DNA from: Escherichia phage PBECO4
Reading direction: 5' to 3' (one strand)
Sequence record: KC295538
Length of the DNA: 64,000 nucleotides
The stretch's first letter is position 1. The number at the start of each line of letters is the position of its first letter. Under the pieces are notes generated by a model that saw only the letters and a list, made by a program, of their open reading frames with translations, did not search any database and had not been told where the DNA came from. Shown in pieces: positions 48,279 through 63,325 of the stretch. The translations under genes were made by a program, and so were the position numbers.

Positions 48279-48340
48279 ATTGTATTCCTCATTTTCTTTG
48301 TTACATGATACTGAAAGATAAAACTGGTGTCAATGTTTTT

Positions 48341-48775
48341 TTAGATCATAGAACGATAATACTCAGGTAACTCAACATCAGTAAATTTATACCACTTAGG
48401 CTTCATCTGGAGCTTCTCAATCAAACGCTCACGAGAGGTTTTAATTTCTGATTCAGATGGTACGTAATCATTACAAAACTCAGCAGGGAAGCTGCTAATG
48501 TCGTTTACTTCAGTGTTTTGAATCTTCATACCACGACGCAAACATTCGTTGACAATATCGATATGACGCTTCTGTAAGTACAGCAACTTGTCGTAAAAGA
48601 ATGTCACATGACCTGAACCCAACAGATAAGTACTGTTAATTTTGAAATCACGTACACGCTTACGTGCTTGAACGTGTTTTTGTACAGCACCAAATACACG
48701 TGGGAGTTCACGATATTCAGCCATCAGGTGTTGGTCAGCAAGTTCTTTAACGTGTACTAAGTTAATGCGTGTCAT
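48341..48775 (-). CDS. denV: endonuclease V (pyrimidine dimer DNA glycosylase/AP lyase), T4 DenV homolog
   Basis: N-terminus [27 protein letters not shown] and [10 protein letters not shown] segment match T4 endonuclease V as I recall it; similar length. Confidence 0.85.
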
Positions 48776-48822
48776 GTATTCATCCTCTCGTTTCGATGAA
48801 ATGATTATAGCAAAAAGGGCTG

Positions 48823-48850
48823 ACCGAAGTCAACCCTTTTCTTTATTCAA
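48823..48850. terminator. TTGACT-containing hairpin element (copy 7)
   Basis: aaaaagggctgaccgaagtcaaccctttt. Confidence 0.5.
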
Positions 48851-49112
48851 TGATCCCCAACTTCACAATCTCATACCCGTCCAGATAGCCATATGAACAC
48901 TCAGGAGTTTCATAGGATGAACCATCATGGATACCCTGGCATTGACTTTTAGAATTCTCAAGAAGTCGTTGCAGTACTGATACGTCCTCAAGAACGTAAC
49001 ACAAGGATACATCTGGGTCTTCCACGATACAGTACTCCAACATATCAAACGTATCAATCGAAATTTCAACCTTGGCAAATCGTTTCTTTTCTTTATTATA
49101 CAGTGCGTACAT
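48843..49112 (-). CDS. hypothetical protein
   Basis: Track ORF 48843..49130 trimmed to MYALYNKEKK.. Confidence 0.5.
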   Translation of the reverse strand: MYALYNKEKKRFAKVEISIDTFDMLEYCIVEDPDVSLCYVLEDVSVLQRLLENSKSQCQGIHDGSSYETPECSYGYLDGYEIVKLGIIE

Positions 49113-49113
49113 A

Positions 49114-49485
49114 TTAATCTCCATAATCAAGTTTAACTAACTTACCACCCAGATACCCAAAGTTTTCTGGCTTCACATCTGAATAGAAGAAGTCAGTACT
49201 TAACTCTGAATTTAATGCTAAAGCACACAACTCCACCCAAAATAAACCCCTATGTTGCACTGGCTTACAACGTTTCTGTACTGTTATTAAACCAGTGCAT
49301 GATGACCACAAAGTAGGGCAGATACCACTATCACTACGATTGGAGTACTGCATCCATGAACGTTCATTGAGGTTAGCTATCATTCCAGTTAGGAATAACT
49401 TCCAGCTTTTGAAGGTTGGAATCTTAATAGCGTATTCCCCAATGAGGATAACAGTTCGGGTTGCACCTTTCAAGTCTATGTTCAT
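49114..49485 (-). CDS. minimal protein kinase-like protein
   Basis: YAIKIP (VAIK-like), DVKPENFG (catalytic loop-like), KLDYGD (DFG-like). Confidence 0.5.
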   Translation of the reverse strand: MNIDLKGATRTVILIGEYAIKIPTFKSWKLFLTGMIANLNERSWMQYSNRSDSGICPTLWSSCTGLITVQKRCKPVQHRGLFWVELCALALNSELSTDFFYSDVKPENFGYLGGKLVKLDYGD

Positions 49486-49487
49486 AT

Positions 49488-49664
49488 TAATAAGAATCAG
49501 ATTCCCAGTACTCGATTGCTTCTTTCAGCAATTCTTTAGCACGTTGTTTTGCAATGCGAGCGGGAAACTGATATGTGTACATTAACTGACGCTTCACTTC
49601 ATTCAGTGAAAGCTGTTCATGGTACAGTGCATCCATCAGTCGATTACGAGTACGTAGTTTCATA
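49488..49664 (-). CDS. hypothetical small protein (58 aa)
   Basis: Own translation MKLRTRNRLMDALYHEQLSL.. Confidence 0.35.
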
Positions 49665-49674
49665 TAAGTTATCC

Positions 49675-50229
49675 TTATTTCAAAGAATCATAGTAAGCAG
49701 TGTCAAAGATTGGAGTCATAATAACATAGTCAATACGGTCAATGTAAGTTGAACTCCACATTTCTGGTTTGTCATATAACTGACGCTCGCGTTCATTCAT
49801 ACGAGTCAGTACTTCTTCCAATTTACTACGTGAATCCATCAATGTATTACTCGAACCATAAGTGAAGTACTCAGTCCAATGATATTCATATTCAGTACTG
49901 ATAGATTGAATAGTACCATCTTTGAAATGAGCTAAGGCATAACCTTTCTCTACAAAGTTATCAGGTGGAAGAACACCATCTGGATTAGTTTTCAATGCTT
50001 GTGCTAACTTTTCTTTAATTTCAGTTAACGTGCATACTGAACGAATGTTCTTCAGGTTTGATACTTGAAAATCACTGTACTTTCCAAAGAAAAATACACG
50101 CCAATCTTTAGGTTCATTATCAGATACGGTAGCATCAGGGTGATGGGCGAGTAAACGAAGAAGGCCAGCTTTGTGACCGTTAATGTAGATTTCATGGATG
50201 TGGTTAGCAGTTTTCTTAAAAGTAATCAT
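49675..50229 (-). CDS. hypothetical protein (184 aa)
   Basis: Track ORF. Confidence 0.6.
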   Translation of the reverse strand: MITFKKTANHIHEIYINGHKAGLLRLLAHHPDATVSDNEPKDWRVFFFGKYSDFQVSNLKNIRSVCTLTEIKEKLAQALKTNPDGVLPPDNFVEKGYALAHFKDGTIQSISTEYEYHWTEYFTYGSSNTLMDSRSKLEEVLTRMNERERQLYDKPEMWSSTYIDRIDYVIMTPIFDTAYYDSLK

Positions 50230-50305
50230 GGTAGTTCCTCGATTGTAGGGATGAGAAGTTCATCCCCTTGATAAGCATTATACAGTACTGAATGTGTTTG
50301 TCAAC

Positions 50306-50701
50306 TCAAAATAAATTCATTTCATGTGCGTATTGTGGTTCAAGATAAGATAAGTTTTTGAAACTGTCTTTCAATTCTGCATCATCTACGTACACAGTAC
50401 CAGGTACATTCCCCATAGTGAAGCCAACCCAAACAGTCATGTTTCCAGTTCCTAAGCGGGGCATTGATAGCGTCCCGTCAGGTGAAACATCAAACGCTAC
50501 ACTAAAGTCATCCGTTACAACTTCCGAACCATTTTCCAGAATAATACAACCACGTTCTTTAAGCTTCTGAATGTGGATAGCAGCCTCTACAGCACGTTTA
50601 AAGTTATAATAAGACTCTTTATCCTCGAACATTGATTGTTTAACCAGACGCTTGTTTAGCTCGGTTACTTTGTGCATTTGACGCATTACTTCAACTCCCA
50701 C
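50306..50701 (-). CDS. hypothetical protein
   Basis: Track ORF. Confidence 0.55.
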   Translation of the reverse strand: MGVEVMRQMHKVTELNKRLVKQSMFEDKESYYNFKRAVEAAIHIQKLKERGCIILENGSEVVTDDFSVAFDVSPDGTLSMPRLGTGNMTVWVGFTMGNVPGTVYVDDAELKDSFKNLSYLEPQYAHEMNLF

Positions 50702-50940
50702 AGTTGTAGAATTTCATAAGAGCCTGGTGGTGCTGGATTGATAATCTCAGGGTATTCAGTACTGTTAGGATTACCACCAGCATTGAACTCAGCAAGTAAT
50801 AATTCGAGTTCATTCCTATCATGTACAACAAACACGCAATATCCAGTTCCTTCTTCAAGAACTGTAGTTGACCCCGCACAATCCCATACGGTATCAATAC
50901 ATAATAATTCTTTAGTGTTTTTATTACGCAACGCAAACAT
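50686..50940 (-). CDS. hypothetical protein
   Basis: Track ORF; preferred over overlapping 50691..50993. Confidence 0.5.
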   Translation of the reverse strand: MFALRNKNTKELLCIDTVWDCAGSTTVLEEGTGYCVFVVHDRNELELLLAEFNAGGNPNSTEYPEIINPAPPGSYEILQLWELK

Positions 50941-50949
50941 ATATGTCTC

Positions 50950-51294
50950 CTATCGATTCGGCATATTCTTTCGTAGTCGCAAGAGAAATTCAACCACTGA
51001 CCATGTTGTAATGAAGGCTATATAAGTTGCAAGGAATCCAGTAAGAATAAATGCAACCAGCGTACTACCATTTGGGGAATCAGTTTTAATGCCGATGACA
51101 CCATCGGCTACAGTGAAACATGTAGCCATTAATGTGTAACCTACGTACAACACAAAGAAAAACTCATTCTCCATTGAAGGATAGAAACGGTTAAACACTT
51201 TATAAAATTTAAAGTACAGTAGGATTATACCAACAAAGGCATAGAATGTAAACAGTGTTGTTATAATATATGAGATTAGGTTCAAATTATACAT
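50950..51294 (-). CDS. small integral membrane protein, family C-like paralog
   Basis: Trimmed to MYNLNLISY..; tail ..LRKNMPNR. Confidence 0.55.
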   Translation of the reverse strand: MYNLNLISYIITTLFTFYAFVGIILLYFKFYKVFNRFYPSMENEFFFVLYVGYTLMATCFTVADGVIGIKTDSPNGSTLVAFILTGFLATYIAFITTWSVVEFLLRLRKNMPNR

Positions 51295-51295
51295 A

Positions 51296-51643
51296 TCAAC
51301 GCTCCGGTAGATTATCACGTAATGTTTTAATTCGATGATACATTTTCATACCAATATTACCAAAGATACCATATCCAAGTACTAAAATGTATGCAATAAG
51401 CATAGTAATAATTACTATAGTGCCAAAACTATAATGTACACTACTGATACCCATTGTAGTTTCAACGATTATTTGAGAAACTGAAAGAATCAAAAGTACA
51501 ACTACAATTGGATGATTTGGGTACATTCGGTTGAACAACGTTTTGTACTTAAAGAAGCACAGTACTCCACCGAATAAGAAGTAAACAATGTAAATGCAAG
51601 CAACAGCATAGGCAAACATGTTAGTGTAATAAATCATTACCAA
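51296..51643 (-). CDS. small integral membrane protein, family C-like paralog
   Basis: Hydrophobic; tail ..LRDNLPER. Confidence 0.55.
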   Translation of the reverse strand: MVMIYYTNMFAYAVACIYIVYFLFGGVLCFFKYKTLFNRMYPNHPIVVVLLILSVSQIIVETTMGISSVHYSFGTIVIITMLIAYILVLGYGIFGNIGMKMYHRIKTLRDNLPER

Positions 51644-51646
51644 TCC

Positions 51647-51985
51647 TTACTTTTCAGGGATATTAGAACGCCATATATCAATGCGATGAACTAGTCCAAA
51701 GAACAACCATACTGGAACGGCAGCTATCATAACAACAAATGAAAACCCAGTCAAGACCGATACCAGATTTAATTCATCAGTACTATACCCACATATCAGT
51801 ACTTCTAATATTCCCCACGTACATGCACAAAACATCAAGAATGAAATTGGGGCATCATAGTAGATACGTTCATATAAAGTAGTGTATCGGAAGAATGCAA
51901 TAATGTAGCAAAACATATAATACACCCAAACCAAAGATACTACATAAAATGATACTTTGTTTATTAATTCAAAATATTGTTCCAT
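51647..51985 (-). CDS. small integral membrane protein, family C-like paralog
   Basis: Hydrophobic; tail ..WRSNIPEK. Confidence 0.55.
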   Translation of the reverse strand: MEQYFELINKVSFYVVSLVWVYYMFCYIIAFFRYTTLYERIYYDAPISFLMFCACTWGILEVLICGYSTDELNLVSVLTGFSFVVMIAAVPVWLFFGLVHRIDIWRSNIPEK

Positions 51986-51987
51986 TT

Positions 51988-52269
51988 TTACCCCAATATA
52001 TATTCAGAGAGTAATGTATTAGCTTCATCTTTGTTCTTAAGGTAATACATGTAATATAGATTCGGTTCACCATCTTTAGCACTCAAATCGAAGTACTTTA
52101 AACTATGTACTTTCATAGTAAAAACAAATAATGACTTAAAACCAATCTCACCGTACTTAATAAACAGTTCATCCAAATGAATGTAACTTTTTGATTTGGA
52201 TAATTCTTTAACGTCTGCATCAATTTCAGATAAAAGATGCTTACCTATTAAGTTTTCAAATGAACGCAT
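51988..52269 (-). CDS. hypothetical protein
   Basis: Track ORF. Confidence 0.55.
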   Translation of the reverse strand: MRSFENLIGKHLLSEIDADVKELSKSKSYIHLDELFIKYGEIGFKSLFVFTMKVHSLKYFDLSAKDGEPNLYYMYYLKNKDEANTLLSEYILG

Positions 52270-52331
52270 GATTTTTATCCTTTACCGCAATTTTTATGGT
52301 TTATTAAGAATACACCAGAATATCAGTTCTG

Positions 52332-52973
52332 TCAATAAAAAACTGGATCTTCTTCAGTAATTGGTATTTCTCTACGTACATCACACGAAAGAGGATCAGT
52401 AATGAATACATTCCCATCTTTATCCATCATCACATTACTTGAATGAATGTCTGGTACAAAACGCCCGTGAAACTCTTTCATGATGTTAGCAGCGACCGTC
52501 GCAATAGCAATCTCTTCAGAATTTCCACGCATATCATTCACTGAAGTAGCGTACTGACCAGCATGTGCATAAGAATATAAATCTCCAATTTTAGTACTAA
52601 CAAAGTCATCATAATTATTTTTTTGTTTAATTATAGGATAGTACTTGTCCATCTCATACCATCCAAAGTTTCCTTGTTCGTTTGCACTGTAGATCACTGG
52701 AAGAAACTTGGTTCCTGCGTTTTCAATGCAGTACTTTGCATAAGCACGAAAACCATCCCAGCGTGAAGTGGTTACTTTAAATGCACGCCCAGGATAGTTT
52801 TTATGTTCAACTACTACAGAGTACATCCCCATTCCAAGCAAAGTAAGTCCAGCAGCTTTAACTTGTGGAAAGATTACGCGTTCAGCATAAGGAATATCAA
52901 ACTCCATCGCACAACGAGTTTTTGATGGACGCAAAATGTCAATTAAAGTTTTGAATATTTCTTGCTTAGTCAT
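52332..52973 (-). CDS. atypical kinase-like protein (phosphotransferase fold)
   Basis: LGMGMYSVVV glycine loop-like, RAFKV lysine, DIHSSNVMMDKDGNVFITD resembling D.H..N...IID of APH/Kdo-kinase-type enzymes; start trimmed to MTKQEIF.. Confidence 0.45.
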   Translation of the reverse strand: MTKQEIFKTLIDILRPSKTRCAMEFDIPYAERVIFPQVKAAGLTLLGMGMYSVVVEHKNYPGRAFKVTTSRWDGFRAYAKYCIENAGTKFLPVIYSANEQGNFGWYEMDKYYPIIKQKNNYDDFVSTKIGDLYSYAHAGQYATSVNDMRGNSEEIAIATVAANIMKEFHGRFVPDIHSSNVMMDKDGNVFITDPLSCDVRREIPITEEDPVFY

Positions 52974-53010
52974 TACTTTATCCTCTGTAGTTAATATCAA
53001 CATCATAACA

Positions 53011-53037
53011 AAAAAGGCTGACCGAAGTCAACCCTTT
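53011..53037. terminator. TTGACT-containing hairpin element (copy 8)
   Basis: aaaaaaggctgaccgaagtcaaccctttt. Confidence 0.5.
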
Positions 53038-53042
53038 TATTA

Positions 53043-53489
53043 TCATTTACAGTTTTCTATAACTATTGCACGTTTTAGTATTTTACTTTCATAAACATAC
53101 TTAAGATGACCTTCTTCACGAATACGATTGAACACATATCCTAGTTTATCTTTTAGTACTGAAGCGGTATCAATGTCAAGATTAACTTCAACCCCTCCTG
53201 TTAATTTAACTTTATATGTAAAGCTAAAAGCATCACCAGATTCAACCAATGGGACTACTTGTTCATACGTATTCAACATAACTCGTTCATCATTAACTAA
53301 ATTATATATTACTATATCACAAGTTTTTACCCCAATTTCCTCTAATGTAGGAGCATTATCTACTATAACATCTTTTACTGTATTTGCAACCTGTTTAGCA
53401 TCTGCTGCATATACATTAAAACTAAAAAGTACTAAAATAATACTTAAAAAAATACTTTTTCTATTATATATCCTTATTTTATTTTACAT
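53043..53489 (-). pseudogene. signal-peptide protein interrupted by in-frame TAA at codon 2 (track ORF 53043..53279 is the downstream remnant)
   Basis: Minus strand ATG (53489..53487) TAA (53486..53484) then open frame NKIRIYNRKSIFLSIILVLFSFNVYAADAK.. continuous with MLNTYEQ.. at 53279. Confidence 0.4.
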
Positions 53490-53580
53490 GTCATATCGGG
53501 TTGTGCTGGTTTATTATTTTTAAACGGATTAGGTTTTTTATTCTTTCTTTTTATCTTTTAAAGGTTTTTTGTCTTCTTTT

Positions 53581-53799
53581 TTATTCTTTATCTTTGTCTT
53601 TTTTATTTTTATCAGGTTCAGAGGGAGTATTACATTGTGCTGGGGGTTGATTAGTTGGAGTACAGCTATTGTCTGATGGGAGTATTACTTCTTTACAATT
53701 GTAAAATAGTAAACTTTTATTTGTGGTTAAATTATGAAAACGATAGTTACGTTCATTATTATAATAAATTGTTTTAGTACTTTCAATGTCATTGCACAT
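53581..53799 (-). CDS. hypothetical protein
   Basis: Track ORF; K/D-rich tail. Confidence 0.45.
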   Translation of the reverse strand: MCNDIESTKTIYYNNERNYRFHNLTTNKSLLFYNCKEVILPSDNSCTPTNQPPAQCNTPSEPDKNKKDKDKE

Positions 53800-53809
53800 T
53801 GCTACTGAA

Positions 53810-54061
53810 TCACCGGAACTCTTTTTCTATTCCCATTACATCAGTCTTACGCTCAGATAGTATACCTGAAGTATATGAATCTTTGTTGTCAAACGCATTA
53901 AATCCAATAGTTCTGTCGGTGTCGTGTATTATTCCTTTTGTGTATGAGGTAGTATAGAACTCCCCATTTCTGAAATCCTGCCTTGCTACTGAGCAATGAT
54001 AATCTGCACCATAAGCAGTACTGGAAAATAATACAATTCCAAATATAATATATTTTTTCAT
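53810..54061 (-). CDS. small secreted protein (signal peptide)
   Basis: MKKYIIFGIVLFSSTAYGADYHC. Confidence 0.55.
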   Translation of the reverse strand: MKKYIIFGIVLFSSTAYGADYHCSVARQDFRNGEFYTTSYTKGIIHDTDRTIGFNAFDNKDSYTSGILSERKTDVMGIEKEFR

Positions 54062-54098
54062 TGTAATCCCTCTTCTTAATTCCTCTTTTGTATTTACA

Positions 54099-54127
54099 AA
54101 AAAAGGCTGACCGAAGTCAACCTTTTA
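54099..54127. terminator. TTGACT-containing hairpin element (copy 9)
   Basis: aaaaggctgaccgaagtcaacctttt. Confidence 0.5.
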
Positions 54128-54132
54128 AATGT

Positions 54133-55644
54133 TTATTTTTTATCCTTTCCAACACCACTGTCGTACTCTTTGAATGAGTTATCAAGTGTAGTTAGTGCAT
54201 ACTCATATGCTTCTGGTGATTCAATGTCAACATCATCTGCACCATTTACTAAATCAGCCCACGCCTTTTGAAGTTTACGAGCATTGTTACCAACATTATC
54301 TTTAATCCAACTAATGTTTTTGTTGATACTTTTACGATCAGCACCTGCTTTTTTGCCAATCTCGGATATCCACATCATTAGCTTTTGAAGTTCATGAATT
54401 GATTTATCGGTCATTTCAAGATGTTCTTCTTCCATACCTTCGGAATCAGATGAACCAACGTCAATTCCATGTTTAGCTAATAGTTTACCAAGTTCAAAGA
54501 ATGCAGCTTCAGCAGGGAAGTCATAACCTTTCTCTTTGTAGTTATTCCATGCACTATCAAACTCGTCAACAAAACGGTTAGCATAATCTGGATTTTTAAC
54601 TAATGCTTTATATACTGCAATTGCATGTTCAAAACCTTCTTTATCTGACCCAAACTCTTCCATCTCAGGACGATGAATGTATCCATCCATATCAACGGTA
54701 TCAGGTAGTTCTTCTTGCTCAGGCTCAACATCTTTCTGTTCAACTGCACCCTCTTCATCTGCACGCTTTAGATAACCATCTGGTGTTACCTTCTCACCAT
54801 GTTCTGCTTCATACTTTTTCATAGTGTTGAATGCAGCATCCATAGCTGTTACGAAGCGACTTTTCTCACCTTGTACATAAGATTTAAGTGCACTGTTAAC
54901 TGCATCTGATACGAGCTTAACCTTATCGTCTTTACCTTCTAAACGGTTTTCAAGTTTAGCCAGTACATTCTTGACTTGCTGGGCATTAGCACGGTCCGCT
55001 TTACCAATATTATCAAAAGTTTTAAGAATACCATCAAGACTTGCTTCACCCTGTTCAGGTTCTTTGGAATCTTCTTTGTGTGTACCTTCAAGTGCACGCA
55101 TGATAGTACTGAATACTTCAGTTGGTTCAGTGCTCTTATTACCTTTCATTACATCAAGTACAGCTTGTGCTTTACCTTTGAGTTCTTCTTTAGGAACTGC
55201 CTGTAGTGCTTTGACAATACCCTGAATCAACTGTGGTTTGTTAGCAAAGATCTTACCTAAGTTATCTGATAACTCTTTAACAGGGTTAGCAGCTTTAGGT
55301 ACTTCTGCTTTTGGTTCTTCTTTAGGAACTGCTTGTTCTTTCTCAGCACGTTCCATATCAGCTAGGCGTTGTTTTTGTGTAGCATTAAGAAGTCCCAATG
55401 AATTAACATAACGTAGCTTTTCTAGCTCAGTCATGTTCTCAGTACTCTTAACTTCACCTGCTTCTGCGTTTGCTTTACCAGCTAGACCAGTTCCTTGGTT
55501 ACGTGACCCACGTGAACCTTGACCTGCTTGATAACTATTTGGACGGCGGTTGCGTTCACTCCATTTATCAGAGTGACCAGCCATGTTACCACCATTTTTA
55601 TCAGTAAAATTACTTGGCATTTGATTTCTCTCCATAGATTTCAT
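54133..55644 (-). CDS. large hydrophilic protein (503 aa), paralogous segment shared with 55890..56273
   Basis: Charged K/E-rich; shared YVNSLGLL / YLDSLGLL and ..KALQAVPKEELKGKA / ..KLKVTPKEHFKATV segments. Confidence 0.6.
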   Translation of the reverse strand: MKSMERNQMPSNFTDKNGGNMAGHSDKWSERNRRPNSYQAGQGSRGSRNQGTGLAGKANAEAGEVKSTENMTELEKLRYVNSLGLLNATQKQRLADMERAEKEQAVPKEEPKAEVPKAANPVKELSDNLGKIFANKPQLIQGIVKALQAVPKEELKGKAQAVLDVMKGNKSTEPTEVFSTIMRALEGTHKEDSKEPEQGEASLDGILKTFDNIGKADRANAQQVKNVLAKLENRLEGKDDKVKLVSDAVNSALKSYVQGEKSRFVTAMDAAFNTMKKYEAEHGEKVTPDGYLKRADEEGAVEQKDVEPEQEELPDTVDMDGYIHRPEMEEFGSDKEGFEHAIAVYKALVKNPDYANRFVDEFDSAWNNYKEKGYDFPAEAAFFELGKLLAKHGIDVGSSDSEGMEEEHLEMTDKSIHELQKLMMWISEIGKKAGADRKSINKNISWIKDNVGNNARKLQKAWADLVNGADDVDIESPEAYEYALTTLDNSFKEYDSGVGKDKK

Positions 55645-55676
55645 TTTTTTCTCTATGTCTATATTTATAGTATAAA

Positions 55677-55704
55677 GAAAAGGCTGACCGAAGTCAACCT
55701 TATT
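55677..55704. terminator. TTGACT-containing hairpin element (copy 10)
   Basis: aaaaggctgaccgaagtcaacctta. Confidence 0.5.
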
Positions 55705-55710
55705 TTGTTA

Positions 55711-55824
55711 CTTAGATTGTTCTTGTGCAGGTGGATTTACTTTTTGATCCACTACATAGAATACACCACCAACCAGTACTGCGGCGATGAGTGCAGCAAC
55801 TACAAATTTTAAACCTTGCATATA
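55711..55824 (-). CDS. small hydrophobic peptide (37 aa)
   Basis: Own translation MQGLKFVVAALIAAVLVGGVFYVV..; bracketed by two hairpin elements. Confidence 0.35.
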
Positions 55825-55860
55825 TGATACCTCAGTTATATTGAGAAGTTATGATACAAC

Positions 55861-55888
55861 AAAGGGCTGACCTTAGTCAACCCTTTTT
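55861..55888. terminator. TTGACT-containing hairpin element (copy 11, variant loop)
   Basis: aaagggctgaccttagtcaaccctttttat. Confidence 0.5.
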
Positions 55889-55889
55889 A

Positions 55890-56273
55890 TTACTTCTTGA
55901 ACTTATGTTTTTCACTTTCGATTGCATTCACGATTTCATCATGAATTTTACGAAGATTGTGAGTTTTCTTGAGAGAATCATGCAATGCACGGAATGCAGA
56001 GTGTACAGTTGCTTTAAAGTGCTCTTTAGGAGTTACTTTAAGTTTCTCGATAATATCACGTACATAGATTGGGTGATCCTCAAACACACGATTAAGCTCA
56101 TGACCTAGTGATTCTAGGCTAAATGCTTTTTCACGGGATGGACGATCATGTGCAAGACTTTGGTCTGGTTTTAGAAGACCTAGTGAATCTAGATACTTGT
56201 GCTTATGTGCATTGTCTAGACCAGAAATATCAACATCATGTGATGGATCTTTCTTATTCCATTTATCAACCAT
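55890..56273 (-). CDS. hypothetical protein, paralog of N-terminal part of 54133..55644
   Basis: DKW, LDSLGLL, PKEHFKA shared motifs. Confidence 0.55.
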   Translation of the reverse strand: MVDKWNKKDPSHDVDISGLDNAHKHKYLDSLGLLKPDQSLAHDRPSREKAFSLESLGHELNRVFEDHPIYVRDIIEKLKVTPKEHFKATVHSAFRALHDSLKKTHNLRKIHDEIVNAIESEKHKFKK

Positions 56274-56388
56274 TTTTATAACTCCTATAAGAGATAAATT
56301 TTACTATAATATTTATAGTTCCGTTGTCATTTATATCGAATGACATAAAACATTATATCATAATAAGAATGGTTGTCCCAAAGTTAAA

Positions 56389-56832
56389 TTAGTACTGACC
56401 AAGTTCAGATGTAAAAATAAATGCATCCATGTCTTCCAACGTAAGTTTTAAGTCTGGTACATACTTAAGAATAACGCACTCTGGCTTCTTAATAGCAGCT
56501 TGATAAGCAGCAATGGCAAGGGATTCCAATTGCTGTGCTGTATAATTTTTACGTTCTGCATTAAAAACTTTGTTTTTGATATCACCACCTGGGAGTTTTT
56601 CAAACTCACGCATAACTGCGGTAAGAACATCGTCAGCAGTGTTACTATATACCCATTGGGGTAATTGCATTACATTATAAATCACACCACTATCATCCAT
56701 CAAAGAGATCCATTTGTACCCATCACTAGCACTGAACAAACGCCCTTTTAGTACTGTGTTATTAGTTAAATTTACAAATGCAAAAATATCTTGTTCGTTA
56801 AGTTCAATACTATTAACATTTACCCAACTCAT
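56389..56832 (-). CDS. hypothetical protein
   Basis: Track ORF trimmed to MSWVNVNSIELNEQ.. Confidence 0.55.
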   Translation of the reverse strand: MSWVNVNSIELNEQDIFAFVNLTNNTVLKGRLFSASDGYKWISLMDDSGVIYNVMQLPQWVYSNTADDVLTAVMREFEKLPGGDIKNKVFNAERKNYTAQQLESLAIAAYQAAIKKPECVILKYVPDLKLTLEDMDAFIFTSELGQY

Positions 56833-56845
56833 TACGATTCCCCAT

Positions 56846-57442
56846 TCATAAATCACGAACAATATTCATTAAACACAATTTAGGTTTTATAGCATTCAAC
56901 ACCCATATGCATTCTTTGTAAGTAGCTATTATATCATCTAAATGCTCAGTTACAATGCTTTCTTGAAAATATTCTTCATCATTGAGCTTTGCTAATTTAG
57001 TAACATCACACGTAGGCACTATAGGTCTGGATTGTACACCCATTCCATTATTGATATTAGTGAAATGTACAAAATGGTACTTCACTACACCTTTATCTAG
57101 ATTTATTATACATGACAAATTTTCCAACTCAGTTAGTTTTTTATTACAAGTAACATTAATGAAACCAGCATTATAGGCTCTATAATCATCTACTGATATC
57201 TCAAAATCATTACGTTCAAATATAAGTGAAATGAGTTGGTCCAGTGGTTTGACATTCATATATTTTAATGAATTTACGTATGATACTTCAATCTTAGATG
57301 AAATTATCTTTTTACTAAGTGCAGTTAAATCTTTGTTAGATTTAACTGTTAAAACAATAGGTTTAAACCTAGAACTTTTGTTCTTTTTTGATACTTTAAA
57401 ACGACCTTTACGATTCATAATTTCCTCAATTAATAATTTCAC
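56846..57442 (-). CDS. hypothetical protein (198 aa)
   Basis: Track ORF. Confidence 0.55.
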   Translation of the reverse strand: MKLLIEEIMNRKGRFKVSKKNKSSRFKPIVLTVKSNKDLTALSKKIISSKIEVSYVNSLKYMNVKPLDQLISLIFERNDFEISVDDYRAYNAGFINVTCNKKLTELENLSCIINLDKGVVKYHFVHFTNINNGMGVQSRPIVPTCDVTKLAKLNDEEYFQESIVTEHLDDIIATYKECIWVLNAIKPKLCLMNIVRDL

Positions 57443-57647
57443 ATTTAACGTGTGGTTTATATAGCATAATTAACCCATTTTTAAGTACAATGATTGTTGC
57501 TCTGTTAGTAATCGAAACGTTTTTAATTATACTTTTTTTATATGTTTCAACATATTTCTCTTCATAATTTATACATTTAACATATTCTTTTTGTTTAGCA
57601 CTTACAACAGTACTGAATAATATCAGTACAAGTACTATATATTTCAT
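57426..57647 (-). CDS. small secreted protein (signal peptide)
   Basis: MKYIVLVLILFSTVVSAKQ. Confidence 0.5.
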   Translation of the reverse strand: MKYIVLVLILFSTVVSAKQKEYVKCINYEEKYVETYKKSIIKNVSITNRATIIVLKNGLIMLYKPHVKCEIIN

Positions 57648-57699
57648 TACTATACCTTATAAACAAAAAGGAATTCATTTAAGAATTCCTATTTTACAA

Positions 57700-57993
57700 T
57701 CATTTATCTAACATACCATTGTGCAAACGTTCATATACTTCAGTTCGACGCAAATTAACAATATCTTCTGCGTATTTTAATGTAAATGCCCATGCTTTTG
57801 GATGTACGTTAAGCTTCATACGAATTCGATTTTTCATCAACTCTCCACTTAAACGAATAAATTCGTGTACACCACGACTACCGTATTCAGTAATTAAATC
57901 ATTAATGTACATATCACGAAGAGTTTCATCTGCACATTCTTTAACCATTTCTACGTCAGCGACGATGCTTTCATTAACTGAAGTACTGATCAT
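57700..57993 (-). CDS. hypothetical protein
   Basis: Track ORF. Confidence 0.55.
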   Translation of the reverse strand: MISTSVNESIVADVEMVKECADETLRDMYINDLITEYGSRGVHEFIRLSGELMKNRIRMKLNVHPKAWAFTLKYAEDIVNLRRTEVYERLHNGMLDK

Positions 57994-58005
57994 TTTTAAT
58001 TTACC

Positions 58006-58272
58006 TTATTTAAATTCGACTGTAATTTTATCACCTTCAACTACGAACTTACAGTTGTAGCGACGTGCCATATCCATGTACATATGCTCAGAGTACCAAG
58101 GAACATCAATAATCGGATGCTCTGCATATTGTAAAACTTCACGGTCGCCCACTGTAGTAATGATGAAAGGAATGTTCATCTCTCGTAAAAACAGTTCAGC
58201 ACCAGGAGAACGATTAATAAATTCAGTATCATTACGTAAAGTAAATCCATTATATTGTAATTTAAGCTTCAT
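58006..58272 (-). CDS. hypothetical protein
   Basis: Track ORF. Confidence 0.55.
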   Translation of the reverse strand: MKLKLQYNGFTLRNDTEFINRSPGAELFLREMNIPFIITTVGDREVLQYAEHPIIDVPWYSEHMYMDMARRYNCKFVVEGDKITVEFK

Positions 58273-58286
58273 ATGTTATCCTCTAT

Positions 58287-58631
58287 TCAATACCATTCTT
58301 TAAAACCATTAAGTTCGGCTACGTGAGTGATTATAACACATATAACATTCAGGTCAAGTATAATTTGATCATAATTTAATTTTATACGATCATCATTATA
58401 TGCTCTAAAAACTACATCGTAATCAAAGAAATTTGCGTTTTCATCATTCATTGAAACGATTCGGTATCTACGTCTTCCATCTGTATTGAATATAGTTAAA
58501 CACTGTTGAAACTTTCTCATTAACTGTTTAGATAGGATATTATAATATTCAATATCTTTTTGTGAATTACGTGGGTCATCAGGAAGATAGAATGAAACAA
58601 ATTTCTTTAATTCTATTTGAGTTTTATCCAT
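58287..58631 (-). CDS. hypothetical protein
   Basis: Track ORF; overlaps upstream gene. Confidence 0.55.
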   Translation of the reverse strand: MDKTQIELKKFVSFYLPDDPRNSQKDIEYYNILSKQLMRKFQQCLTIFNTDGRRRYRIVSMNDENANFFDYDVVFRAYNDDRIKLNYDQIILDLNVICVIITHVAELNGFKEWY

Positions 58632-59064
58632 ATATTACCTCATTTGTTTCTCTTTTACTTTGTCGGAACTCATCCTTTGCTTCCTTAACTGACATGATAC
58701 GAACTAATTTAGCACTACCGCAATAGTACTGAACCTGATTACGACCAATGTCTACATGGTGGTCTGGAACTTCATATACAGATATAGCAAACCCAGCACG
58801 ATGCAATTTACCTAAGTCCATAGTGAAGAATCTGAACAAATCTTTCAAACTTTGACAGCCAAATACCCATCCACTTTTGATTGAATAAATCCCATCCTCA
58901 GTTGGTTCAGGTTGGAATTGAGAAGGTGTAGTCATGAGCAAACGGTCAAATCCATTTTTAGTACTGTATCTGGTTGAATACCGTGCAAACGGACCTACAG
59001 TTCGTGCAGGATCTAAGTTAGGTTCAATGTAACTAAATTTAAGTTCAAAACGATATACATACAT
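58624..59064 (-). CDS. hypothetical protein
   Basis: Track ORF; hairpin element upstream. Confidence 0.55.
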   Translation of the reverse strand: MYVYRFELKFSYIEPNLDPARTVGPFARYSTRYSTKNGFDRLLMTTPSQFQPEPTEDGIYSIKSGWVFGCQSLKDLFRFFTMDLGKLHRAGFAISVYEVPDHHVDIGRNQVQYYCGSAKLVRIMSVKEAKDEFRQSKRETNEVIYG

Positions 59065-59100
59065 AATTAAAATCCTCTAATTTATTAAGAGAATTATAAC

Positions 59101-59127
59101 AAAAAAGGCTGACCGAAGTCAACCTTT
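59101..59127. terminator. TTGACT-containing hairpin element (copy 12)
   Basis: aaaaaaggctgaccgaagtcaaccttt. Confidence 0.5.
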
Positions 59128-59310
59128 GTTTTGAAGTTCTTGAACTAATTGTCGTACTTCGTTAATATTTTTACACTGCTTTACAGTGAAGTAATCATAC
59201 TTACGACCATAGGTTCTTGGGTCATCACCTTCCATATACTGCTGCACATCAAAGATTTGTAAGTAGGGATGCTGCATAACACGAATATTATCACTTTGAT
59301 AAATCAACAT
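59119..59310 (-). CDS. hypothetical protein
   Basis: Track ORF 59119..59364 trimmed to MLIYQSDNIRV.. to avoid overlap. Confidence 0.45.
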   Translation of the reverse strand: MLIYQSDNIRVMQHPYLQIFDVQQYMEGDDPRTYGRKYDYFTVKQCKNINEVRQLVQELQNKG

Positions 59311-59314
59311 AATA

Positions 59315-59665
59315 TCAATCCTTATATTTACACAAGCCACCAAAACTAGTTTCTTTAGCACCACGACGCATCATAACTAATTTAGCATATTGTGTGCCAT
59401 TACTATCTTCATATACATCTACTTCAATAAACGCTAAGAAGTTAGGGTCTGTGTCGTTAGAAAACTCAGTGAAGCTAATGTCGCCTACTGTATGCTCTTT
59501 AACAAACGTATATGATTGTCCATCAATATATACAATATCTCGATCGTCACTATCACCTTGATAGATATGTTTAATATTACCATCTGTACAAACTAAACCT
59601 TCCAATGGTTCAGCATATGACAATCCACACATTAACATACATACAAAAAATAAAATAATTTTCAT
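59315..59665 (-). CDS. small secreted protein (signal peptide)
   Basis: MKIILFFVCMLMCGLSYAEP. Confidence 0.55.
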   Translation of the reverse strand: MKIILFFVCMLMCGLSYAEPLEGLVCTDGNIKHIYQGDSDDRDIVYIDGQSYTFVKEHTVGDISFTEFSNDTDPNFLAFIEVDVYEDSNGTQYAKLVMMRRGAKETSFGGLCKYKD

Positions 59666-59667
59666 GA

Positions 59668-60045
59668 TTATTTTCCTCCAACGTTAAGTGATTTCTTGTA
59701 CTGATATTCTTTATAAGTACTATACCATATATCACCAACGTAAATCAAGTACCACGTAGCAGGATAAAGAGCCAATCCAGTACTGATGTATACGAACTTT
59801 TGGTCAAGGACATCAAATACATACAGAAGGAAAGTTACTCCCATAATGCAAGAACAAATTAACCACAAGTTATAAGCAATCGAATCGCAAGCAAAAATAG
59901 AATCAAGCTTAGAAATTAGGACATATTTGTTTGTTAAAATGAAATGAATTACTGCAACTAAACAATATCCTGCCATAAAAATAGAAATTAAAAAAGACAG
60001 AATAATTGGAATATTCAACAACAAAAGTAAAATAGTGTTTACCAT
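59668..60045 (-). CDS. small integral membrane protein
   Basis: Hydrophobic multi-pass profile. Confidence 0.55.
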   Translation of the reverse strand: MVNTILLLLLNIPIILSFLISIFMAGYCLVAVIHFILTNKYVLISKLDSIFACDSIAYNLWLICSCIMGVTFLLYVFDVLDQKFVYISTGLALYPATWYLIYVGDIWYSTYKEYQYKKSLNVGGK

Positions 60046-60055
60046 TTTTTAAGTC

Positions 60056-60415
60056 CTATATTTCACAGTGTAAGTTCAATTTATCTATATCTAGGTCACG
60101 GCGTACCGATGAGTCCAAGTAAATTACTATATAGATATCACCATTACCAGTTCTTGGGTCTACAATTAATATTACGTTTGCTAATGTACCAGAATCATCT
60201 CTATAAGTCGAGATTTTTTTATTACCGATAATACTTTCTACTTTAAAACGATAAATCACACCATCAACAACTATATTTTTACCATTTCTAGGGTCGTTAG
60301 TCAATACATGCCACGTTCCCTTAGTACTACGACAATATGTTTCTGCTGCTGCACCATAACTAAAACATGAAAATAATGCACACACAAGTGCTATTAATTT
60401 TATATAACTCTTCAT
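60056..60415 (-). CDS. small secreted protein (signal peptide)
   Basis: MKSYIKLIALVCALFSCFSYGAAAE. Confidence 0.55.
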   Translation of the reverse strand: MKSYIKLIALVCALFSCFSYGAAAETYCRSTKGTWHVLTNDPRNGKNIVVDGVIYRFKVESIIGNKKISTYRDDSGTLANVILIVDPRTGNGDIYIVIYLDSSVRRDLDIDKLNLHCEI

Positions 60416-60493
60416 AACAAACCTCTAACGAGAAATACTTCTGTACTATATATATGTACAGAAGTATTTAATACTATAGAGATATTTTCACTG

Positions 60494-60820
60494 TTACATC
60501 TTATTCGTGAACTTGAATTTGATAATATCAATCCAAATTTTAACATTTCCTGCAAATAGTGCTTTGATTAGCCACATAATTGCAACAAAGTTCTCAACTA
60601 AATCCAAAGTTTTAACTACTGCACCGAGTGGGAAGATAAAACTCAAAACCCATACAATTACTGAAACCACAACGACTGCATAGAAAATACGCACAATCGG
60701 TGAATCAAGCATAAACAACTCAGAGAACTCTTTTTTATCATTATCATCAGTAATAAAGCATTCGTAAACCAGAAGCCAAATCAGAATTAAAGACGGAATT
60801 GAAATTAGTACTGATAGCAT
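60494..60820 (-). CDS. small integral membrane protein
   Basis: Hydrophobic profile. Confidence 0.55.
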   Translation of the reverse strand: MLSVLISIPSLILIWLLVYECFITDDNDKKEFSELFMLDSPIVRIFYAVVVVSVIVWVLSFIFPLGAVVKTLDLVENFVAIMWLIKALFAGNVKIWIDIIKFKFTNKM

Positions 60821-60877
60821 ATTTTTTACCTCAAGTTTAAGTGTTAAGTTTCAGACTACAGGAACCATTATACAGTA

Positions 60878-61120
60878 CTACGAACGTTTGTCAACATTTG
60901 TTTCTTCAATAAGCATAAGATAACTTAACACGAAGAGTAATACCGAAATAATATCAATAACCGTAAAGCTCACGGGAATAATAATAGACACTAGAACGAG
61001 TGCCACGTTTAGCAAGAATACAGTAGTGAGATCTACCATCGTTCGTCTAGTGGCTAATGCCACTAGTGTAGGATAGAACATAAACAATAGTGCAACAACA
61101 AAACTTAGTACTAGATACAT
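60878..61120 (-). CDS. small integral membrane protein
   Basis: Hydrophobic profile. Confidence 0.55.
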   Translation of the reverse strand: MYLVLSFVVALLFMFYPTLVALATRRTMVDLTTVFLLNVALVLVSIIIPVSFTVIDIISVLLFVLSYLMLIEETNVDKRS

Positions 61121-61791
61121 TTCTTTTTCACCTTAATAAAATTATAACACAAAACCACATCAACATCTGGCTCATCACACAAGTACTCAAAACGTTCTTT
61201 ACTTCGTTTAGTACCGATATACTCACCATTCTTATGCCAACGCCATCCACCATCCTTTGGTTGTTCAGACTTCAGTACTGGGTGATAGCACAAGACAATT
61301 TCTTCTGGACCTTCAATTAGGTTCTTGTACTTCTTCATAATCTGTTCAAGCGTATCTGCTACACCATAAGATGAATGCATAAGATAAGACTCAGGACGTG
61401 GACGTCCACTTGGTAGAATATCATCAGTACTATTAAAGATAGCACGGAAGTCTTCAGATGTGTATAGACTTCCATCTTCATGGATCATTGGGTATTCATC
61501 CACGACATCGTAATCAGTGAAGTGTTCAATTGCATGTGCAGGTCGATAACCTGCAAGGATACCTGCATGTTTAGTCTGGACAATAGTCATAACAGATGTA
61601 TTGTTGTTTACATTTGGATCATGAATTTCAGCCCAAAACGGATGATTTGGATCAAAAGTTGCATTTACCAATGTACACTCACCAATGTAGTCAAACATAG
61701 TTTCCTTGAAGTTTAAAGAAACTCCACGTAATGCCCAGTCAGGTGAAGTGATGAAATTAAGATTAACTAACATAAGTATCCTCAGATGCAA
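61111..61791 (-). CDS. hypothetical protein (226 aa)
   Basis: Track ORF. Confidence 0.6.
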   Translation of the reverse strand: MHLRILMLVNLNFITSPDWALRGVSLNFKETMFDYIGECTLVNATFDPNHPFWAEIHDPNVNNNTSVMTIVQTKHAGILAGYRPAHAIEHFTDYDVVDEYPMIHEDGSLYTSEDFRAIFNSTDDILPSGRPRPESYLMHSSYGVADTLEQIMKKYKNLIEGPEEIVLCYHPVLKSEQPKDGGWRWHKNGEYIGTKRSKERFEYLCDEPDVDVVLCYNFIKVKKKCI

Positions 61792-61805
61792 TTTTTTTGA
61801 TGTGG

Positions 61806-62021
61806 TTATTGTATCAAAGATGTATCGATTTGTACAACATTTATTGTAACTATTTCGTACATATAGTCAGGTGCATTGAACTCAGCATACCACTCAATGA
61901 TCTCACAAGCAGCATCAACTTGGTTGTTCGCATTAACACGTCTTGCATAGGTACTAGACATTTTATATCTACCATTTACATACACGTTATATACACCATG
62001 ACACCACCACATCTTAGTCAT
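61806..62021 (-). CDS. hypothetical protein
   Basis: Track ORF. Confidence 0.5.
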   Translation of the reverse strand: MTKMWWCHGVYNVYVNGRYKMSSTYARRVNANNQVDAACEIIEWYAEFNAPDYMYEIVTINVVQIDTSLIQ

Positions 62022-62232
62022 TTATACTAGGCCATACTTTGTATTGTAAGTTCTGGTATTGAAATTTACCAATTTCATTTTTCTTACGGAATGATTCATC
62101 TACTTGAATTTCCGCATCGTACTGACCATCAGCCTGTACAACGTACTTAAATTCTTCTACGTGTGAAAAACGTAGACCTTCACCTTCTGGTTTATAGACT
62201 TGTACTAAACCTTCAACTAGATATAAATTCAT
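62014..62232 (-). CDS. hypothetical protein
   Basis: Track ORF. Confidence 0.5.
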   Translation of the reverse strand: MNLYLVEGLVQVYKPEGEGLRFSHVEEFKYVVQADGQYDAEIQVDESFRKKNEIGKFQYQNLQYKVWPSIND

Positions 62233-62235
62233 TTA

Positions 62236-63172: not shown

Positions 63173-63325
63173 GATATTCGCCTTAGAATAATTTATTAAT
63201 AATAATAGCACCCAACGCAAGAACTGCAATAATTACAGATACCCACATTACTGCATTCACTGTACCAGTAAGTTCTTTATCAAACTCCCTGCACTTCTTG
63301 CGGTAATCTTCCCACTCTTTGTTAT

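What the first reader, a model, noticed from the sequence alone, without database searches (positions are those of the whole stretch)
53043..53489. Secreted-protein gene whose second codon is an in-frame TAA
On the minus strand an ATG at 53489 is followed directly by TAA, then an uninterrupted frame encodes a typical signal peptide (..RKSIFLSIILVLFSFNVYA-AD..) continuous with the track ORF starting at 53279. This is either a fresh nonsense mutation, a sequencing error, or a case where translation restarts at the internal ATG and gives a cytoplasmic form. It is worth checking because T4-like phages often carry their own tRNAs, including suppressors.
Basis: seen in the sequence. Interest (0 to 1): 0.45.

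Follow-up and report, generated by a model that had tools for sequence, protein, structure and literature searches.

The report
Sequencing-type frameshifts break two phage genes
The "ATG-TAA" is a coincidence inside the tail of the neighbouring gene; the real start codon of this small secreted-protein gene of a jumbo coliphage (almost certainly PBECO4) is broken by single-base insertions that carry the signature of pyrosequencing errors, so the feature is most likely an artefact and is ordinary.

Summary
The letters are as described: ATG 53489-53487, TAA 53486-53484, then an open frame with a signal-peptide-like stretch running into the 78-aa ORF 53043-53279 (minus strand). But that ATG is not the gene's start. 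It straddles two codons (ACA TGT) of the upstream gene's last residues and is GTG in many relatives.

The window is an Asteriusvirus, not T4-like, and is almost certainly phage PBECO4. In genomes from other laboratories the gene (121Q gp204 orthologue, 139 aa) starts 26 nt downstream: TAAGGAtatata-ATG AAA AAG ATT TTT TTA, giving MKKIFLSIILVLFSFNVYA|AD.

In the window this start reads ATAG, and a second extra base follows 7 nt later. Two more extra bases truncate the upstream gene (gp203 orthologue). Deleting the four bases restores both proteins at 100% identity to phAPEC6, G17 and slurp01.

All four insertions have the form "base H inserted ahead of X-Hn", the published 454 carry-forward error. 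A flow simulation reproduces all four in the sense direction and none in the other.

The only other records carrying them (SD-1, SD-2, SD-6) look like reference-guided consensus built on PBECO4.

No tRNA gene lies in the window, and nothing points to recoding. Real mutations remain possible (about 15%); a separate natural lineage carries a T7-to-T6 knock-out of the same gene.

The parts
53484..53489 (-). It lies out of frame within the last codons (ACA TGT AAA) of the upstream gp203 orthologue and is a chance juxtaposition.
   Evidence: The ATG is GTG in 121Q, G17 and the 12 T6 contigs (a synonymous ACA/ACG change in gp203). No Shine-Dalgarno sequence lies upstream.
53043..53464 (-). Full extent of the 121Q gp204 orthologue (139 aa in relatives; a Sec-type signal peptide plus a roughly 120-aa mature part with two conserved Cys). 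In the window it has no start codon and is out of frame with the former one.
   Evidence: Removing bases 53462 and 53454 gives a 139-aa protein identical to P0001 (G17, 121Q, phAPEC6, slurp01).
53461..53464 (-). Disrupted start codon: ATG in all independent relatives, ATAG here.
53462..53462 (-). Inserted A (insertion 3): aatG AAAAA becomes aatAG AAAAA. An A placed ahead of G-A5.
   Evidence: It was the most frequent predicted carry-forward insertion in the simulation.
53454..53454 (-). Inserted T (insertion 4): AAG ATTTTTTT becomes AAG TATTTTTTT. A T placed ahead of A-T7.
53471..53475 (-). Shine-Dalgarno AAGGA of the gp204 orthologue, 6 nt before the former ATG. It overlaps the stop codon of the upstream gene.
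   Evidence: Read directly; conserved in all relatives.
53406..53464 (-). Signal-peptide coding part (MKKIFLSIILVLFSFNVYA in relatives; predicted cleavage after VYA, before ADAKQ).
   Evidence: n-region KK, 12-residue hydrophobic core, small residues at -3/-1. Inferred from these features; no signal-peptide predictor was available.
53446..53452 (-). T7 tract in codons 4-6. It is T6 (MKKIF-stop) in a separate natural lineage.
53043..53279 (-). The residual 78-aa ORF from the internal ATG. It is annotated in PBECO4 as gp320 and in SD-2 and SD-6.
53474..53799 (-). Full extent of the 121Q gp203 orthologue (107 aa in relatives, with a K/D-rich tail). Two insertions break it in the window.
53581..53799 (-). 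The truncated 72-aa ORF left by the first insertion (GAT AAA becomes GAA TAA). Its exact product is on record for one contig only: PBECO4 gp321.
53584..53584 (-). Inserted A (insertion 1): GATAAAAAA becomes GAATAAAAAA.
53541..53541 (-). Inserted A (insertion 2): GATAAAAAA becomes GAATAAAAAA, in the same 9-mer context as insertion 1.
53010..53034 (-). Terminator-like hairpin GGTTGAC-TTCG-GTCAGCC followed by T6, after the gene. It is one of 12 copies of the TTGACTYCGGTCA motif in the window.
   Evidence: G17 annotates a terminator at the same place. The consensus terminator scan did not call it (0 found).

Best explanation
The window is the deposited genome of the jumbo coliphage PBECO4 (genus Asteriusvirus). 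Two adjacent small genes are involved: the orthologues of 121Q gp203 (107 aa) and gp204 (139 aa, a Sec-exported periplasmic protein of unknown function).

Within 131 bp these genes carry four spurious single-base insertions, at 53584, 53541, 53462 and 53454. They truncate the first gene and remove the start codon and reading frame of the second.

The insertions are most likely base-calling errors of flow-based sequencing (454-type 'carry-forward'). A sub-population of strands runs one flow ahead of the rest. When it meets an A5-A6 or T7 run, it gives a false single-base signal just before the base that precedes the run.

The errors probably entered the consensus from one or a few poor reads, all running in the gene-sense direction, across a thinly covered A/T-rich stretch.

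The real phage most likely makes both full-length proteins. The 'ATG TAA' is a chance overlap with the 3' end of the upstream gene, and no recoding, suppression or re-initiation is involved.

Shown: the insertions, their uniform form, that deleting them repairs both genes perfectly, and their absence from genomes produced independently. Inferred: that they are errors rather than mutations, and which sequencing platform was used.
For: 1. Location. All other laboratories' Asteriusvirus genomes that I aligned read TAAGGAtatataATGAAAAAGATTTTTTT and have intact 107-aa and 139-aa genes. These are 121Q, G17, phAPEC6, CRJP21, slurp01, UB and four 348-350-kb contigs from E. coli assemblies or metagenomes.

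2. Repair. Deleting the four bases restores both proteins with 0 differences from phAPEC6, G17 and slurp01, so there is no other sign of decay.

3. Form. All four insertions are 'H inserted ahead of X-Hn' (n = 5-7) on the same strand. That is the carry-forward insertion described for pyrosequencing: 'GACTGGG could become GACGTGGG' (Huse et al. 2007, PMC2323236).
   - The chance that four random 1-nt insertions in this 280-bp stretch all fit, in one orientation, is about 2e-8.

4. Simulation.
   - Sense-direction reads predict 16 insertion contexts, and these include all four observed ones with the right base and position.
   - Plus-strand reads predict none of the four.

5. Clustering. Over about 41.8 kb of the window aligned at 96% identity or better to other laboratories' genomes, these are the only isolated 1-nt insertions outside a base run that sit in otherwise near-identical coding sequence.
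   - In an ORF census of 236 matched reference ORFs, gp203 and gp204 are the only genes broken by frameshifting indels.

6. Uniqueness. The exact 72-aa truncated gp203 product is on record for one contig only, PBECO4. The 107-109-aa forms (one of 99 aa) are on dozens of contigs.

7. The SD records are not independent support. SD-6 carries 4 of the insertions, SD-1 carries 3 plus a deletion, SD-2 carries 2 and SD-15 carries none. All come from one study.
   - They carry window alleles in a patchwork.
   - They lack different internal pieces of the gp201 virion-protein gene.
   - This is what a reference-guided consensus built on PBECO4 would look like.
Against: - I could not see reads or the record's sequencing-technology field, and the PBECO4 paper is not held. 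That PBECO4 was 454-sequenced is my recollection and is unverified.
- 386 similar X-Hn slots exist in the window and only these four are hit, so a local cause (low coverage or one bad read) has to be assumed.
- The simulation also predicts about a dozen insertion contexts that are not observed.
- The subsets of insertions in SD-15, SD-2, SD-1 and SD-6 are nested. That pattern is also compatible with stepwise real mutation, if those assemblies were made de novo.
- The gene is demonstrably dispensable in nature, because a lineage with a T6 frameshift circulates. A real knock-out in PBECO4 would therefore be viable.
Confidence: 0.8

Rival explanations
1. The four insertions are real mutations in the PBECO4 lineage. 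Two dispensable accessory genes (the gp203 and gp204 orthologues) were knocked out, for example during laboratory propagation or under selection from a host defence, and are young pseudogenes.
For: - An unrelated knock-out allele of the same gene (T7 to T6, MKKIF-stop) exists in 12 independent assemblies, so losing it is tolerated.
- The insertion-bearing sequence is also present in SD-6, SD-1 and SD-2, in nested subsets.
Against: - Four +1 insertions fall within 131 bp, with no substitution in either gene.
- Once the first hit has killed a gene, nothing selects for a second one.
- All four have the form of a carry-forward artefact and are reproduced by a flow simulation in one read direction only.
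- I know of no mutational mechanism that gives this pattern.
- The SD records look derived from the PBECO4 reference.
- No other independent contig carries the truncated gp203 product.
Confidence: 0.15
2. The sequence is correct and the secreted protein is still made from a non-canonical start, for example the in-frame ATT at 53453-53451 or ATA at 53471-53469, giving a slightly different signal peptide.
For: The frame from 53483 down to 53043 is open and retains the whole hydrophobic core and cleavage site. ATT and ATA are rare but known bacterial start codons (general knowledge).
Against: - The ATT lies 17 nt after the AAGGA, too far for normal spacing, and would give a signal peptide with no positive n-region.
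- The ATA overlaps the Shine-Dalgarno sequence itself, with none upstream (read directly).
- This reading does not explain the two insertions in the upstream gene.
- No relative uses such a start.
Confidence: 0.03
3. One reading: the gene starts at ATG 53489 and has TAA as codon 2. That stop is either read through by a phage suppressor tRNA or bypassed by re-initiation at ATG 53279, giving a cytoplasmic 78-aa form.
For: Only the literal juxtaposition ATG-TAA followed by an open frame. PBECO4 and the SD records annotate the 78-aa ORF.
Against: - The ATG is out of frame inside the upstream gene's last codons, has no ribosome-binding site and is GTG in many relatives.
- Orthologues start 26 nt downstream at a strong ribosome-binding site.
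- No tRNA gene lies in the window.
- The internal ATG has no evident ribosome-binding site.
- The mature domain begins at residue 20 and includes conserved Cys48, which the 78-aa form lacks.
Confidence: 0.01

Closest known systems
Escherichia phage 121Q gp204 (YP_009101791) = G17_00109 = phAPEC6 gp032c; 139-aa hypothetical protein of Asteriusvirus
   Same: After the two extra bases are removed, the window encodes a protein 100% identical to it. The genomic position is the same, between gp203 and the T7 gp0.7-like protein kinase.
   Different: In the window the ATG is ATAG and the frame is shifted. Only the C-terminal 78 aa remain as an ORF (PBECO4 gp320).
454/pyrosequencing carry-forward insertion errors (Huse et al. 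2007, Genome Biol 8:R143; Gilles et al. 2011, BMC Genomics 12:245)
   Same: A single base identical to an upcoming homopolymer is inserted one base ahead of it, in A/T-rich contexts. All four insertions fit this, and they fit the TACG flow order in one read direction.
   Different: Such errors are normally out-voted in a consensus, so reaching the deposited sequence needs locally thin or one-directional coverage. The platform used for this genome was not verified.
Natural T6 frameshift allele of the same gene (contigs L017-L028; 78-aa products P0002 and P0003 in E. coli and metagenome assemblies)
   Same: It inactivates the same gene within its first six codons and leaves the same 78-aa residual ORF.
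   Different: It is an ordinary homopolymer contraction (T7 to T6). It is seen in many independent short-read assemblies and forms one clade, and the upstream gene is intact there. It is a real variant, unlike the pattern in the window.
Phage-encoded suppressor tRNAs and stop-codon recoding in phages
   Same: Nothing beyond the presence of an in-frame TAA upstream of an ORF.
   Different: The TAA is not inside the gene as orthologues define it, no tRNA gene lies in the window, and other genes here end in TAA.

Membership tests
Asteriusvirus gp204 protein family (P0001 cluster) | High sequence identity over the whole 139 aa | tested here: met
   100% over residues 62-139 as the sequence stands. 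100% over all 139 aa after deleting bases 53462 and 53454.
Asteriusvirus gp204 protein family (P0001 cluster) | Intact ORF starting at the ATG 6 nt after AAGGA, with an N-terminal Sec-type signal peptide | tested here: not met
   The start reads ATAG and the frame is shifted. The signal-peptide codons themselves are all present.
Recoded / suppressed stop codon | The stop codon lies inside the reading frame that orthologues translate | tested here: not met
   The TAA at 53486-53484 lies upstream of the orthologous start, within the coding tail of gp203 in another frame.
Recoded / suppressed stop codon | A cognate suppressor tRNA is encoded by the phage | tested here: inconclusive
   ARAGORN finds no tRNA in the 64-kb window. 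The rest of the genome was not available; relatives carry 7 tRNAs (PMC5114366), whose anticodons I did not examine.
Flow-sequencing carry-forward artefact | [quoted passage not shown] | tested here: met
   4 of 4 insertions fit, each one intervening base ahead of an A6, A6, A5 or T7 run, all on the same strand. P is about 2e-8 by chance.
Flow-sequencing carry-forward artefact | Position and base compatible with the flow order | tested here: met
The model is crude and my own, and it also predicts about 12 sites that are not observed.
Flow-sequencing carry-forward artefact | Absent from independently sequenced close relatives | tested here: met
   Absent from 121Q, G17, phAPEC6, CRJP21, slurp01, UB, SD-15 and more than 20 Logan/ENA/NCBI contigs. 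Present only in SD-1, SD-2 and SD-6, which appear to be built on PBECO4.
Flow-sequencing carry-forward artefact | The genome was sequenced on a flow-based platform, and the reads show low or one-directional support | not testable with these tools
   No reads and no record header were available. The PBECO4 paper (Arch Virol 2013) is not held and no paper held states the platform.
Phase-variable homopolymer (contingency) locus | Tract length differs among close relatives and switches the gene on or off | tested here: met
   T7 is the intact state; T6 gives MKKIF-stop in 12 contigs.
Phase-variable homopolymer (contingency) locus | Recurrent, independent switching (the off state is polyphyletic, or mixed within populations) | tested here: not met
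   All T6 contigs form one clade in a neighbour-joining tree of 1,166 ungapped columns with 45 variable sites. Within-sample heterogeneity could not be tested.
   The best matches are Asteriusvirus jumbo phages of 310-386 kb, at 97-99.8% identity.

The most novel reading that the evidence does not exclude
The four insertions are real. PBECO4 would then have lost two adjacent small genes, one encoding a periplasmic protein. A separate wild lineage carries a T7-to-T6 frameshift in the same gene's homopolymer-rich first codons. Together these would make gp204 a recurrently switched-off accessory gene in Asteriusviruses, for example one that is counter-selected on some hosts.
Probability: 0.12. 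Interest if true: 0.25.

Novelty: not a real feature. Interest (0 to 1): 0.06.

Why it matters
It matters mainly as data hygiene. PBECO4 (NC_027364) is the RefSeq exemplar of the species Asteriusvirus PBECO4.
- Its gp320 (78 aa) and gp321 (72 aa) are most likely mis-annotated fragments of a 139-aa secreted protein and a 107-aa protein.
- The same lesions seem to have been copied into later records (SD-1, SD-2, SD-6) through reference-guided assembly.
- Pan-genome counts that use PBECO4 will wrongly score these two genes as divergent or absent.

There is no evidence for stop-codon recoding or suppressor tRNA use. If the insertions proved real, the biology would still be modest: loss of two dispensable accessory genes.

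Tried and rejected
- **Stop-codon suppression.** There is no tRNA in the window, and the TAA lies outside the gene as its orthologues define it. Rejected.
- **Noisy assembly overall.** Rejected. Only three to six other 1-nt gaps separate the window from CRJP21 or 121Q over 14.5 kb, all in non-coding base runs. The ORF census finds no other frameshifted gene.
- **Context-wide systematic error at GATAAAAAA.** Not supported. Four other GATAAAAAA sites in the window are unaltered. The third GAATAAAAAA, at 5948-5957, sits at a normal gene end next to a terminator.
- **T6 allele as recurrent phase variation.** The T6 contigs form a single clade. Not supported.
- **Function of gp204.**
  - Pfam and PHROGs gave only sub-threshold hits.
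  - The word-index search found only the family itself.
  - An exhaustive phmmer search found one 43%-identical homologue and two weak partial matches to very large proteins.
  - A single-sequence AlphaFold model was poor (pLDDT 49), so I did not run a fold search.
- **Independent copies of the insertion-bearing start.**
  - Exact-pattern scans of IMG/VR, JGI metagenomes and GTDB genomes found none.
  - The wild-type control pattern found only 121Q in IMG/VR and nothing in the other two, so these negatives say little.
  - There was no match in complete E. coli genomes.
- **Literature.** I found no paper stating PBECO4's sequencing platform or describing the SD-* assemblies.
- **Failed runs.** One simulation run was killed by the sandbox and repeated in smaller form. 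The first simulation, with high carry-forward rates, degenerated and was not used.

Full report
**1. What is in the sequence**

On the minus strand the window reads ...CCC GAT ATG ACA TGT AAA ATA AAA TAA GGATATATAATAGAAAAAGTATTTTTTTAAGT....
- In that frame there is no further stop until 53045-53043.
- The translation contains RKSIFLSIILVLFSFNVYA-ADAKQ and runs into the mechanically listed 78-aa ORF 53043-53279.

So the literal observation holds.

**2. What the window is**

It is not T4-like. The region matches jumbo phages of the genus Asteriusvirus (121Q, G17, phAPEC6, slurp01, CRJP21 and others) at 96-99.8% identity. Three results point to Escherichia phage PBECO4 specifically:
- The exact product of the truncated upstream ORF (72 aa, 53581-53799) is on record for a single contig, PBECO4 gp321 (348,113 bp).
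- The 78-aa ORF is PBECO4 gp320.
- PBECO4 itself never appears among the hits of the phage collection, although relatives cite it.

I take the window to be PBECO4. This is an inference.

**3. Where the gene really starts**

In 121Q, G17, phAPEC6, CRJP21, slurp01, UB, SD-15 and several 350-kb contigs from E. coli or metagenome assemblies, two genes lie here. One is gp203 (107 aa) and the other is gp204 (139 aa).
- gp203 ends ...ACA/ACG TGT AAA ATA AAA TAA.
- gp204 starts at TAAGGAtatata-ATG AAA AAG ATT TTT TTA, giving MKKIFLSIILVLFSFNVYA|ADAKQ....
- This is a typical Sec signal peptide: a KK n-region, a 12-residue hydrophobic core, and V-Y-A before the predicted cleavage site. That is inferred from these features; no predictor was available.
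- The only distant homologue found by exhaustive search (P0060, 43% identity) also begins MKK plus a hydrophobic segment. It shares two cysteines (C48, C138), which fits an exported, disulfide-bonded protein.
- No family or function could be assigned.

**4. The lesion**

Relative to all those genomes, the window has four 1-nt insertions within 131 bp.

| Position | Gene (orthologue of) | Change on the minus strand | Effect |
|---|---|---|---|
| 53584 | gp203 | GATAAAAAA to GAATAAAAAA | Creates GAA TAA immediately, leaving 72 aa |
| 53541 | gp203 | GATAAAAAA to GAATAAAAAA | Second frameshift in the same gene |
| 53462 | gp204 | ATG to ATAG | Destroys the start codon |
| 53454 | gp204 | AAG ATT to AAG TATT | Shifts the frame again |

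Deleting the four bases restores a 107-aa and a 139-aa protein with zero differences from phAPEC6, G17 and slurp01. Removing only one of the two gp204 insertions does not rescue the gene.

**5. Error or mutation?**

Several results point to error.

(a) Form. All four insertions have the same form on the same strand. A base H is inserted one position ahead of X-Hn, with runs of A6, A6, A5 and T7.
- This is the pyrosequencing carry-forward insertion as defined by Huse et al. [quoted passage not shown] 2011).
- The stretch 53380-53660 has 11 such slots among 280.
- Four random insertions all fitting, in one orientation, has P of about 2e-8.

(b) Simulation.
- For sense-direction reads it yields 16 insertion contexts over 195 usable simulated reads.
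- These include all four observed ones with the correct base and position: atataat[A]gaaaaag, agaaaga[A]taaaaaac, ataaaga[A]taaaaaag and gaaaaag[T]attttttt.
- The same simulation for plus-strand reads predicts none of them.
- The model also predicts about a dozen sites that are not observed, so it shows compatibility, not proof.

(c) Locality.
- Over roughly 41.8 kb of the window aligned at 96% or better to other laboratories' genomes, all other indels are of ordinary kinds. They are length changes of non-coding base runs, changes in hairpin loops, or paired gaps in divergent segments.
- An ORF census finds no other gene broken by a frameshift.
- A cluster of four errors in 131 bp fits the observation that a small share of 454 reads carries a disproportionate share of errors. 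It also fits a thinly covered, extremely A-rich stretch.

(d) Independence.
- The truncated 72-aa gp203 product occurs on one contig only. The 107-109-aa forms occur on dozens.
- The insertion-bearing DNA is otherwise found only in Salmonella phages SD-6 (all four), SD-1 (three, plus a 30-nt deletion over the first site) and SD-2 (two). SD-15, from the same study, has none.
- These four records are 310-326 kb, against about 350 kb for other Asteriusviruses.
- They lack different internal pieces of the gp201 virion-protein gene (window 54127-55345) and carry window alleles in a patchwork.
- SD-1 is identical to the window at all 45 variable sites around the locus.
- This is what a reference-guided consensus on the RefSeq genome PBECO4 would produce, so I do not count them as independent support. 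That is an inference.

**6. What speaks for real mutations**
- I could not see reads or confirm the platform. That PBECO4 (2013) was 454-sequenced is my recollection only; the paper is not held.
- The nested subsets among the SD genomes would also fit stepwise accumulation.
- The gene is clearly dispensable. Twelve independent contigs (Logan, ENA; L017-L028) carry T6 instead of T7 in codons 4-6, giving MKKIF-stop, with gp203 intact. These contigs form one clade, so this is one circulating knock-out lineage rather than demonstrated phase variation.

I put real mutation at about 15%.

**7.
- Suppression or read-through of the TAA is moot, because the TAA is not in the gene. No tRNA gene lies in the window.
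- Re-initiation at ATG 53279 is unsupported. There is no evident ribosome-binding site before it, and the 78-aa product would lack residues 20-61 of the mature domain, including conserved Cys48.
- A non-canonical start (ATT 53453-53451 or ATA 53471-53469) is conceivable but poorly placed relative to the AAGGA.

**8. Verdict**

The underlying anomaly is four single-base insertions that break two adjacent small genes of PBECO4. They are most probably flow-sequencing artefacts fixed in the deposited record and propagated into derivative records (confidence 0.8).

It is not a new biological feature. Its value is as a correction to the annotation of PBECO4 gp320 and gp321. Interest is low.

Noticed in passing
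window 53446-53452 (-); loci L017-L028: A natural frameshift allele of the same gene. The T7 tract in codons 4-6 is T6 (ATGAAAAAGATTTTTTAAG = MKKIF-stop) in 12 independent Logan/ENA contigs, including a 350-kb metagenome contig, and the upstream gene is intact there. All T6 contigs form one clade in a small tree, so this is one circulating knock-out lineage rather than shown phase variation.
   Followed up: yes
L006, L007, L009, L010, L015, L016 (OR699181-OR699183, OR699188) against window 48782-64000: The Salmonella phage SD-1, SD-2, SD-6 and SD-15 records look like reference-guided consensus sequences built on PBECO4. They are 310-326 kb, each has different internal dropouts in the gp201 virion-protein gene (window 54127-55345), they carry window alleles in a patchwork, and they retain 3, 2, 4 and 0 of PBECO4's four insertions respectively.
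   Followed up: partly
window, minus strand: 5931, 8188, 11407, 15027, 46107, 47897, 48821, 53019, 54108, 55685, 55868, 59110: The hairpin motif TTGACTYCGGTCA occurs 12 times on the coding strand (0.6 expected). It forms a terminator-like stem with a TTCG/TCCG loop, and the stem contains a -35-like TTGACT followed about 18 nt later by a -10-like box (for example 53031-53002). This looks like a combined terminator and promoter cassette between genes.
   Followed up: partly
window 53810-54061 (-): The gp202 orthologue (83 aa, phrog_28901) also begins with a Sec-type signal peptide (MKKYIIFGIVLFSSTAYG-AD). The locus therefore encodes at least two small exported proteins of unknown function next to a T7 gp0.7-like protein kinase (52332-53006).
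   Followed up: no
window 53474-53620 (-): The gp203 orthologue has a K/D-rich low-complexity tail (KNKKDKDKDKKEDKKPLKDKKKDKKPNPFKNNKP). Relatives show in-frame length variants of 99, 107 and 109 aa, and SD-1 has a 30-nt deletion there.
   Followed up: partly
window 48341-48775 (-): The endonuclease V (denV-like, Pyr_excise) orthologue is 144 aa here and 171 aa in 121Q and CRJP21. The difference begins at a break in the alignment (about 48338-48372), where identity to relatives drops; this looks like a mosaic junction rather than a frameshift.
   Followed up: no
window 52332-53006 (-): The protein kinase gene is annotated with two different starts among relatives: 224 aa in 121Q and PBECO4, 213 aa in G17, phAPEC6 and many assemblies.
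   Followed up: no
window about 29800-41000 (+): By homology to slurp01 and CRJP21, this stretch holds a tandem array of about ten paralogous genes of roughly 1.1-1.2 kb, annotated as RCC1-like 'regulator of chromosome condensation'. It is on the opposite strand to most of the window's genes. The megablast piece limit was reached in this region, consistent with repeated sequence.
   Followed up: no
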